From: an uncultured Methanosarcinales archaeon
GTDB lineage: Archaea > Nanobdellota > Nanobdellia > Woesearchaeales > B54-G15
Assembly: GCA_964519225.1 (NCBI GenBank)
Contig: CAZFJK010000007.1
Location: 1-39,631 of the forward strand
DNA: 39,631 bases
Direction: 5' to 3'
Part shown: positions 18,001 to 21,000 of the stretch, piece after piece
Position numbering within the stretch: the stretch's first letter is position 1
Layout: every line of letters starts with the position of its first letter
Position numbers: made by a program

Positions 18001-21000
18001 TCACGCTTAACTAGTTTAATAACTTTTTCAAAAATTTCCCTACTTGCCCTATGCAGATCATCATTTACAACCCTTGCCCATTTCCTACTTTGTGCAAGCC
18101 AGTCGTATATCTCCTTCACCTGTGCAAGATAAACCGCATCCTTCTCATGCTTATCCATCTTCTCTTCAATATAGCTTCTCTTTCCTTTCTTCAATATCCT
18201 TTCTCTTGCAACATCAACAGGAACATCTAAGTAAATAACCAGATCCGGCTGAGGCATCCTGTTTATCACGTATTCCTTTTCCCCAACAAACTCAACAAAC
18301 CATTTCCAGTCATCGCTCCTTGCACCCTGATGCGCCTGATTACTCGGCACATACCTATCAACAAGAACAAAATCATTTTCTTTCAATGCATCTAGCAATT
18401 CGTTCTTTGCATGCAACCTGTCAATAGCAAACAAAACAGAAATCAAAATAGGGTCGGGATCTCCGAATTCTCCCCTTAAATATTTTCCGATTAACTGACC
18501 ATAAAAATGTTCGTATCTTGGAAAAGAAAAAACAGCAACTTTAAAACCGCTTTGTTCCAAATGCTCTTTCAGCAATTCAACATGCTTCTTCTTCCCACTG
18601 CCGTCTATTCCTTCAAAAACAACAAGCTTCCCCATCAAAATATCATCAACTGAAAAAAGATTTAAAGATTTAGTAACTGGAATATATCAAATCCTATTCA
18701 TATTCCCGCCAAACATATTTGCATTTCTCGCATTTAAAAAACCTGGTGGCAGGTTCATCCGCTGCCCTTGTTTGAACTTCCCAGAAATAAGCCCTGTCAT
18801 GCCCGCACTTTGGACATTTTGCTTTAACCAGAGGCAGAACCTCCCTTTCCTTTTCAACAACAGCAACATCTTCAGCTTTACTCTTTTCTTTTTCAGAAAG
18901 TTTAAGCTCACCCTTGCACTTATAGCCGCACCTAGGACAGACAAGCTCACCCTCTTTTCCAGGCACCAAGATTGATCCGCACTTAGGACAAAACTTTACC
19001 ATATTATCACCTATCCTTTAAACAAGCCTATAAATTTGACAAACAGTATTTTTATCCATCCCAAATAAGGTATTCTAAACACAGCCTTACCGATTATCTT
19101 TTCTTCACTTATACCAACCTCATTCAATTTCGTCCCAGTTATGCTTTGCAGATTATGGTCTCCTTTAGTTTGAAAATACCACTTCCCATTGACTTTCCAT
19201 TTCTTCACAATCCTGTGAATGATCGGATCTTTCTGTTTGTCTTTAAAAACCAGAATATCTCCGATTTTCAATTCTTCAGGCTCAACACCAACCAGAATCA
19301 TAATATCTCCTTTGTTAAATCCGTTCTTAAAAGGAAAGCGCATAAACATCTCCTTTGTTATGTTATGCTCCTCGTAAAAATCCTTCTGCAAGCACGCGCT
19401 TTTACTGCAGACAGCAATCGAATTCCACCATTTTTCAAAATCACCGTCATGTTCCATACTTCCGCTAACAACAGCAACTATCGGATAGCTTGTTCCAAGC
19501 AAGAGCCCTATCAACGGATAGAAAACAAATTTAATCACAACAAAAGCTATAACAATGTTAGCAATCCAGCTAAGCGGATGATTGCTTTTCCATAGAAACC
19601 ACCAAATCCGCTTTAAAAATCCAGCCATTTTTTTATTTCAAAATTCAATCTTCTACTTCAACAATCTTCTTTCTGCTCTTTCTACCTTTTAAAAGCTTTA
19701 CCCTCTTTTTAAAGTATCTTGTAAGAAATTTTATGAGTTCCTGATTGGCCTTTCCTTCAACTGCCTTTTCCTTAATCCATACCTCTGCTACTCTTTTTTC
19801 TCTATCAAAACGTATAACCTTGTTTTCTGTTTTTCCGGGCTTGGCATAAACAAGAATCTTCATGAGCCTTTAACTAAGGGCAATGATTATAAAGATTTCT
19901 TCTTTAACTGAAAAAAAAATGCAAAAACAGAAGCATGCCCAGTACTATGAAGGAATCCTTCAGCTCAGAAATCCAACAAGAGAAATAATCTCATTCGTCA
20001 GAAAAGAAATAGAAAAAAGCAAAATAAACATCGCTAAAGAAAACCGCCTTAAAAACGGCATTGATCTTTACCTTTCATCTCAACGATTCACACGACAGCT
20101 CGGTCTTCTGCTGCAAAAACGATTTCCAGGAATTTTAATAACATCAAGAAAACTTCATACCGTCAGCAAAAAAACAGGAAAACGCCTGTATAGGGTTACT
20201 GTCTTATTTAAGTACATTCCAGTAAAACCAGGAAAACAGATCACATTCAGAGGCATGAAACTTAAAATCATTCAAATAGAACGAAATACAATTATAGCAA
20301 AAGAACAATCTGGAAAAAAGCACAAGATAAAGCTCAAAGAGCTAGCTGATCTAGTTCTATCTTAGCCTTTTTTATCGCAACGTCTTTTTTAACAACGCGG
20401 CAAATCAATTTCCCAAAATTTTCCTTGTACTGCCTTTTTATCTTCTCAACAACCCTGTGGATGCTTTCATAAGCATGCAAGGCAGCACTCAAAGCACTTC
20501 TTTCGTGCTTGTTTTTTACAAATCTTTTATACGGCTTTGTTATTCTCAGCTTTTCAGGCCAGCTGAGATCCTTCTTAGGACAGTAAATCTTTGCTCCGAA
20601 TTTTCTTGCAATCTTTTCAATCAATCTCGGTGCTTTACTGACATCGCACGCTATTACAATAGGCTCGCCAAACTCAGTTAAATGTGAGATGATCCAGCTT
20701 AACTTCAAATGCTTTCCAGAATTAATCTCTAATATGTTTCCATCAACATCTAAAATAGCATAGCCAATAGTAGTTCCTGGATCAATACCTATAATAATCG
20801 GCCTTCTGTCAAATCTATTTAACCTTTGCATTATTGTTTACTTCTCTATCAACAGTAAGCAGGGCTATTGGATTAACACCATCATCCGCAGCCAGTACCA
20901 TTCCTTGACTTCTTACACCCCTTATCTCCTTATGCTCTAAATTATTGATAAAAACAACTTTCTTTCCAAGCAATTCATCTTCACTATAGTATTTTCTCAA

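What a model noticed while it worked through the whole genome (the two positions that open the first line are those of the whole stretch)
19883..20365. NMD3 has lost its eIF6-docking zinc domain, in step with aIF6 loss across the order
NMD3 here is 160 aa and lacks the whole N-terminal zinc-binding domain, the part that docks on eIF6 in yeast. Across the order this truncation tracks loss of aIF6, which suggests that the Nmd3-eIF6 contact exists in archaea and that the two are lost together.
Evidence so far: PF04981 matches only profile 139-240 and nothing else in G000; no CxxC in the protein. Same 41 genomes searched for NMD3 and aIF6: one lacks NMD3; by profile start, aIF6 is present in 15 of 20 with the N-domain and 2 of 20 without (Fisher p=7e-5, call 184). 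Reading 20 loci moved one genome (G038, partial zinc knuckle) to the first group: aIF6 absent in 17 of 19 without the domain against 6 of 21 with it. Yeast Nmd3 residues 16-39 form a zinc treble clef that binds Tif6 (PMC6393466, passages read, call 183).
(Added by a program. Inside this text positions count along the whole contig: contig position 1 is position 1 of the stretch shown here. "Call 12" and the like, gene names such as g00115 and contig names such as C1 are that model's own, and its searches are not shown. The text may have been shortened before it was handed on; [...] marks where a part breaks off. The agent that wrote the report below was given it as the finding of a first reader that could run no searches.)

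Follow-up and report, generated by a model that had tools for sequence, protein, structure and literature searches.

The report
Shortened archaeal Nmd3 follows aIF6 loss
In a group of tiny archaea, a ribosome-assembly protein (Nmd3) has repeatedly lost its zinc hook in the lineages that lost the hook's known partner from yeast (IF6), which suggests the two proteins also work together in archaea.

Summary
Confirmed and strengthened. Window 19883-20365 encodes a cysteine-free Nmd3 with only the eL22-like and SH3 domains. The genome has no separate N-domain, and aIF6 is cleanly deleted from its operon. Among 240 classifiable genomes of the order (of 251 searched), aIF6 is present in 102 of 114 that keep Nmd3's first zinc knuckle (Zn1, the eIF6-docking part in yeast) and in 13 of 126 that lack it. 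A ribosomal-protein tree gives about 20-30 separate double losses, rejects one origin, and gives a dependent-evolution likelihood ratio of 59-71, against 6 for the OB domain and 11 for SBDS. Rates favour aIF6 lost first. Other orders repeat it: 36 of 37 with Zn1, 0 of 16 truncated. Four aIF6-positive genomes keep Zn1 alone; four keep a split-off N-domain gene. Where aIF6 survives without Zn1, its Nmd3-facing residues appear decayed (five genomes). Binding was not shown. Best reading: the Nmd3-IF6 contact is ancient and decays once aIF6 is gone (0.7). Not found in the papers searched.

The parts
19883..20365 (+). Truncated Nmd3 ORF as called (160 aa, no Cys): eL22-like plus SH3-like domains; both zinc fingers, the eL31-like body and the OB domain are absent
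   Evidence: family profile aligns to yeast Nmd3 155-277; model pLDDT 90.6, the 14 fold hits at E<=0.001 are pre-60S or Nmd3 entries
19919..20365 (+). Probable true coding region from Met13 (148 aa)
   Evidence: inference: in 98 truncated relatives the nearest Met lies 3-35 (median about 6) residues before the conserved YxEG-LQ motif
19928..20206 (+). eL22-like alpha/beta domain (binds the P site in yeast)
   Evidence: PF04981 profile 139-240, E 1.1e-11
20237..20356 (+). Short SH3-like beta domain, residues 119-158
   Evidence: four strands in the model; yeast SH3 is 251-310 (PMC6579518), aligned to 277
19887..19893 (+). TTATAAA, TATA-like box about 29 bases before Met13
   Evidence: seen in the sequence; promoter role inferred from recalled archaeal promoter spacing, not tested
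19645..19863 (-). DUF167 gene, divergent; bounds the 5' side
   Evidence: PF02594 E 1.7e-15
20334..20831 (-). DUF460 gene, convergent, overlapping the 3' end by 32 bases
   Evidence: PF04312 E 1.8e-36; coordinates

Best explanation
Archaeal Nmd3 binds the immature 50S subunit as yeast Nmd3 does: the eL22-like domain sits in the P site and the first zinc knuckle (Zn1) latches onto aIF6 (inferred from yeast). In this order aIF6 has been deleted many times (shown). Zn1 then has no partner and is lost about 30 times faster than when aIF6 is present (model estimate), usually with the rest of the N-domain, cut at the eL22-like boundary (shown). The remnant, as in this window, is kept under selection and probably still acts as a P-site placeholder, no longer coupled to an aIF6 checkpoint (inferred).
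For: aIF6 in 102 of 114 genomes with Zn1 and 13 of 126 without. On 137 tips: 32 Zn1 losses, 36 aIF6 losses, 21 on identical tip sets; at least 19-26 double-loss clades after collapsing weak nodes; likelihood ratio 59.5, 71 and 67 on trees from disjoint gene halves. Of 29 independent pairs, 17-22 went the same way and 0-1 the opposite way in the commonest outcomes of 500 draws. One origin rejected, delta lnL 1247, p-AU 0.0006. Ratios for other traits: body 42, OB 6.4, SH3 3.5, SBDS 10.6. Zn1 loss rate 0.24 with aIF6, 7.4 without. Other orders: 36 of 37 against 0 of 16. Zn1 fused alone to the core in G101, G170, G221, G152, all aIF6-positive, and in none of the aIF6-negative truncated loci read. 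Split N-domain gene kept in 4 of 4 aIF6-positive f37 genomes. In five Zn1-less genomes the aIF6 positions matching yeast G189 and P163 rank 4 and 6 of 215 for departure, while the N106-equivalent is unchanged (rank-product p 0.007).
Against: Twelve genomes keep Zn1 without aIF6; in 3 of them the deletion is confirmed in an intact operon and family f9 is 4 of 4. Thirteen keep aIF6 without Zn1, and 8 genomes of another order (f122) have aIF6 with no Nmd3 found. Where Zn1 is lost but the body kept, aIF6 is present in 6 of 15, so Zn1 specificity over the whole N-domain is modest. The yeast interface buries only 107 square angstroms (PMC6579518). The order of loss rests on a lnL gap of only 3-6. 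The five aIF6 proteins are more diverged overall (0.32-0.50 identity to consensus; background minimum 0.50), the background was chosen by similarity and its Zn1 status is mostly unknown, and the T185-equivalent is unchanged. The Nmd3 gene tree cannot reject one clade of truncated forms (p-AU 0.44).
Confidence: 0.7

Rival explanations
1. Indirect co-loss: aIF6 and the Nmd3 N-domain serve the same late 50S step (H89, sarcin-ricin loop, uL16 loading), and both go when that step is dropped, without touching each other.
For: The body also tracks aIF6 (ratio 42) and SBDS loss is nested in aIF6 loss (27 of 29 SBDS-less genomes lack aIF6). In yeast the body contacts H89 and Lsg1. The yeast interface is small.
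Against: Zn1 is kept alone, with the H89-contacting body deleted, in 4 aIF6-positive genomes of the order, and a compact form lacking most of the body occurs in 12 aIF6-positive f141 genomes. The Nmd3-facing patch of aIF6 decays. eL24 and a NOG1 match are kept in 5 of 5 genomes tested, 3 of them aIF6-less; SBDS is kept in 105 of 132 aIF6-less genomes.
Confidence: 0.2
2. Few real events: the pattern comes from shared ancestry under a poorly resolved tree, or from one truncated allele spreading by gene transfer.
For: Many backbone nodes have low support and the order is not monophyletic in my tree. Both traits carry phylogenetic signal (29 and 31 steps against about 46 shuffled). The Nmd3 gene tree allows one truncated clade.
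Against: One origin is rejected on the species tree. Three families hold both the both-present and both-absent states. Sister contrasts have support 0.98-1.0, such as f102 against f83. The best of 4135 background alignment columns reaches p 6.5e-8 against 5.5e-17 for Zn1. Transfer would not explain matching aIF6 deletions at an unlinked locus.
Confidence: 0.06
3. Artefact or general erosion: missing assembly, one deletion removing both genes, or zinc sparing.
For: Most genomes are fragmented. Prefoldin alpha, the aIF6 neighbour, was not found in 7 of 30 tested. Nmd3 lies within 4 kb of aIF6 in 2 of 116 genomes.
Against: SBDS is missed in only 2 of 119 aIF6-positive genomes. Single-contig genomes G014 and G022 lack aIF6. 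The G000 operon is intact without aIF6. The missing-neighbour cases are more frequent among exceptions (5 of 12 against 2 of 18, p 0.08), so gaps weaken rather than create the pattern. G000 keeps a zinc-ribbon TFIIS-like protein.
Confidence: 0.04

Closest known systems
Yeast and human Nmd3 (PF04981; PDB 6n8k, 5t62, 6lu8)
   Same: eL22-like and SH3 domains match by profile and fold. Full-length relatives in the order align to yeast 19-151, with Zn1 on C19/C22/C35/C38.
   Different: The window's protein lacks both zinc fingers, the eL31-like body, the OB domain and the eukaryotic C-terminal tail.
Full-length archaeal Nmd3 (e.g. Archaeoglobus fulgidus 22-150, NMR in PMC6579518)
   Same: Single-copy orthologue, found in 243 of 251 genomes of the order.
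   Different: No archaeal Nmd3 chain was found among solved structures by sequence; its role is called open in PMC8481954. Truncated, Zn1-only, compact and split forms were not found described in my searches.
aIF6 / SBDS / aEF-2 late 50S maturation module
   Same: aIF6 sits between an ScpA-like gene and prefoldin alpha-FtsY in many relatives; SBDS is present in G000.
   Different: aIF6 is essential in Haloferax (PMC3828320) and called consistently present in archaea (PMC8481954), yet was not found in 132 of 251 genomes here (one sub-threshold hit counted as absent).

Membership tests
Canonical Nmd3 | PF04981 match above the curated cut-off | tested here: met
   45.4 bits against 24.9
Canonical Nmd3 | [quoted passage not shown] | tested here: not met
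   no cysteine; no separate gene
Canonical Nmd3 | eL31-like body with second zinc finger | tested here: not met
   18 residues precede profile position 139
Canonical Nmd3 | eL22-like domain | tested here: met
Canonical Nmd3 | SH3 domain | tested here: met
   short form: strands 119-150, alignment to yeast 277
Canonical Nmd3 | OB domain (E site, L1 stalk) | tested here: not met
   protein ends about 50 residues after the eL22-like domain
Canonical Nmd3 | Binds the immature large subunit at the P site | not testable with these tools
   inferred from yeast only
Nmd3-IF6 pair | Physical contact of Zn1 with IF6 | not testable with these tools
   needs a structure or binding assay; comparative evidence only
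Nmd3-IF6 pair | IF6 patch equivalent to yeast P163/T185/G189/T211 conserved where Zn1 is present | tested here: inconclusive
   185 is G/A and 181 is T/S in 114 of 114 background rows; 159 and 207 vary; 185 departs in 3 of 5 Zn1-less genomes

The most novel reading that the evidence does not exclude
The Nmd3-IF6 latch predates eukaryotes, and about half of this archaeal order builds 50S subunits with no IF6 checkpoint, using a minimal 95-200 aa Nmd3. In one family the latch works in trans as a separate small protein.
Probability: 0.55. Interest if true: 0.8.

Novelty: new variant of a known kind. Interest (0 to 1): 0.7.

Why it matters
The role of archaeal Nmd3 is an open question, since archaea have no nuclear export and no clear Lsg1. 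Repeated, ordered, domain-level co-loss with aIF6 points to one testable contact and names the residues on both sides. It also shows that aIF6, essential in Haloferax, is dispensable in many DPANN lineages, and offers natural minimal Nmd3 versions.

Tried and rejected
Complex prediction of G193 Zn1 (residues 1-36) with its aIF6 and zinc gave no verdict (score 0.02); it counts neither way. Single-sequence search of solved structures found nothing useful. Classing by profile start alone was rejected: it missed Zn1 in G101, G170, G221, G152, G085, G019, G030 and the split f37 genes, and counted 14 Zn1-less genes as complete. A single deletion removing both genes was rejected as general (2 of 116 within 4 kb). 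A hidden N-domain gene in 5 truncated, aIF6-positive genomes was not found, with no positive control in that call. Relaxation of uL14 in aIF6-less genomes was weak and not above background. The Nmd3 gene tree was uninformative; it used 93 rows, one per family, and 8 rows failed the motif cut. A phylum search of 6 genomes returned only same-order genomes. Three look-ups of earlier findings returned nothing. PMC5376978 is not held.

Full report
The gene. Window 19883-20365 (+) gives a 160-aa protein without cysteine. PF04981 covers residues 16-108, profile 139-240, and nothing else in G000. A profile of 110 homologous segments aligns to yeast Nmd3 155-277, which is the eL22-like domain (155-250) and part of the SH3 domain (PMC6579518, passages). 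The model has pLDDT 90.6, and its 14 fold hits at E<=0.001 are pre-60S or Nmd3 entries. A divergent DUF167 gene starts 19 bases upstream, and an N-domain profile finds no convincing copy elsewhere. aIF6 is not found, and its usual neighbours abut on contig C6. Homologue names point to Woesearchaeota; the order name is my inference.

Survey. The same 251 genomes (at least 85% complete, 120 families) were searched for Nmd3 (243 found), aIF6 (119 above cut-off) and SBDS (222). All Nmd3 matches were placed. By profile start, aIF6 was present in 98 of 117 starting at or before 40, 7 of 11 intermediate and 11 of 115 starting at 135 or later. I then read all but 2 of the truncated loci, all loci with intermediate starts but one contig-edge case, and 49 of 106 full-length ones; the rest are classed by profile start (one search was cut in display and rechecked by pattern). 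Leaving out 8 genomes without Nmd3 and 3 cut by contig ends, aIF6 is present in 102 of 114 with Zn1 and 13 of 126 without. Five of the 240 are flagged unpublished (G157, G115, G176, G178, G180); without them the counts are 101 of 113 and 13 of 122. None is in the tree or the alignments.

Informative forms. G101, G170, G221 (f102) and G152 carry Zn1 joined straight to the eL22-like domain, and all have aIF6; f83, sister to f102 at support 1.0, lacks both. In f37, Nmd3 is split into two unlinked genes and the N-part is kept with aIF6 in 4 of 4 genomes, one a single contig. Against this, 15 genomes keep the body without Zn1 and 6 of them have aIF6. Of 12 genomes with Zn1 but no aIF6, 3 show a true deletion, 2 end at a contig edge, 5 also lack the neighbouring prefoldin match and 2 were not inspected.

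Tree test. Twenty-three genes (4069 columns) from 141 genomes of 115 families plus 10 from other orders were used with FastTree. Discordant genomes were added on purpose, which works against the association. On 137 tips, loss-only counting gives 32 Zn1 and 36 aIF6 losses, 21 on identical tip sets, and at least 19 double-loss clades with nodes under 0.98 collapsed. Dependent evolution beats independent by a ratio of 59.5, 71 and 67 on gene halves, and also under reversible rates and 3-8% false absence. Forcing the 52 truncated, aIF6-less tips into one clade costs 1247 lnL (p-AU 0.0006; 2000 resamples, and the constrained tree may be suboptimal). Controls give 42 (body), 10.6 (SBDS), 6.4 (OB) and 3.5 (SH3); C-terminal states were estimated from frame length for 70 genomes. 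'Zn1 loss depends on aIF6' fits better than the reverse by 3-6 lnL. The backbone is weakly supported, the order is not monophyletic in this tree, and the Nmd3 gene tree is uninformative.

Other orders. Among 130 further genomes of the class, aIF6 is present in 36 of 37 with Zn1, 0 of 16 truncated, 1 of 1 with body only and 8 of 76 without Nmd3 (Zn1 read in 24 of the 37).

The partner's side. Yeast suppressors at the Tif6-Nmd3 interface are P163, T185, G189 and T211 (PMC5536393, passages and section 7). They map to 159, 181, 185 and 207 of the G193 aIF6 (numbering read from the Chaetomium alignment with the same offset). I could fetch aIF6 from 5 of the 13 Zn1-less genomes. Position 185 is G or A in 114 of 114 background rows but N, Q or H in 3 of 5; position 184 departs in 5 of 5 and ranks first of 215; 159 ranks 6, 207 ranks 27 and 181 is unchanged (rank-product p 0.007). 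Position 102 is intact (that it equals the ribosome-facing N106 is partly recalled). These five are more diverged overall, so this is suggestive only.

Literature. Zn1 binds Tif6 in yeast (PMC6393466, passages), burying 107 square angstroms. Archaeal Nmd3 is called ubiquitous with an unresolved role, and Tif6 consistently present (PMC8481954, passages). aIF6 is essential in Haloferax (PMC3828320, passages). aSBDS is not needed for aIF6 release (PMC8024482, PMC13324472, passages). One DPANN survey omits IF6 from its list of factors seen in all phyla without discussing it (PMC8407392, one passage). Seven searches (listings seen) showed no paper on truncated archaeal Nmd3 or its co-loss with aIF6. 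Subscription papers are not covered, PMC5376978 is not held, and I did not read supplements; Figure S20 of PMC8481954 may bear on DPANN Nmd3.

Verdict. The correlated loss is real and repeated. A direct Zn1-aIF6 contact is the best explanation (0.7), a shared step without contact the main rival (0.2). The protein descends from Nmd3 but fails the canonical architecture: a new variant of a known kind, interest 0.7.

Noticed in passing
L103-L108, L110, L111 (G036, G137, G195, G240; family f37): Nmd3 is split inside the eL31-like body into two unlinked genes; in G137 they lie about 457 kb apart on one contig. The second zinc site would be shared between the two pieces.
   Followed up: partly
L312 (G275) and 11 more f141 genomes: Compact 181-193 aa Nmd3 with both zinc sites but most of the body deleted; aIF6 is kept but very divergent (E 1e-10 to 1e-16).
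   Followed up: partly
family f122, 8 genomes: aIF6 present in 8 of 8 with no Nmd3 match.
   Followed up: no
251 genomes: SBDS is kept in 105 of 132 aIF6-less genomes, and 27 of its 29 absences fall in aIF6-less genomes; this fits an aIF6-independent role.
   Followed up: partly
G018:C6:6692-8553; G188:C15; G082:C29:5780-6580: Nmd3 lies next to aIF6 in two f19 genomes and next to prefoldin alpha in G082.
   Followed up: no
G000:C2:20615-20776: The NOG1 match lies in a 144-aa frame, against 313-353 aa in four relatives; split gene or contig end not checked.
   Followed up: no
window about 16580-16760: A run of N (assembly gap) in a small gene pair; it does not touch the finding.
   Followed up: no
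The C-terminal SH3/OB part is shortened in steps (both, SH3 only, none) in Zn1-positive and Zn1-negative genomes alike; the smallest Nmd3 forms are about 95-105 aa.
   Followed up: partly
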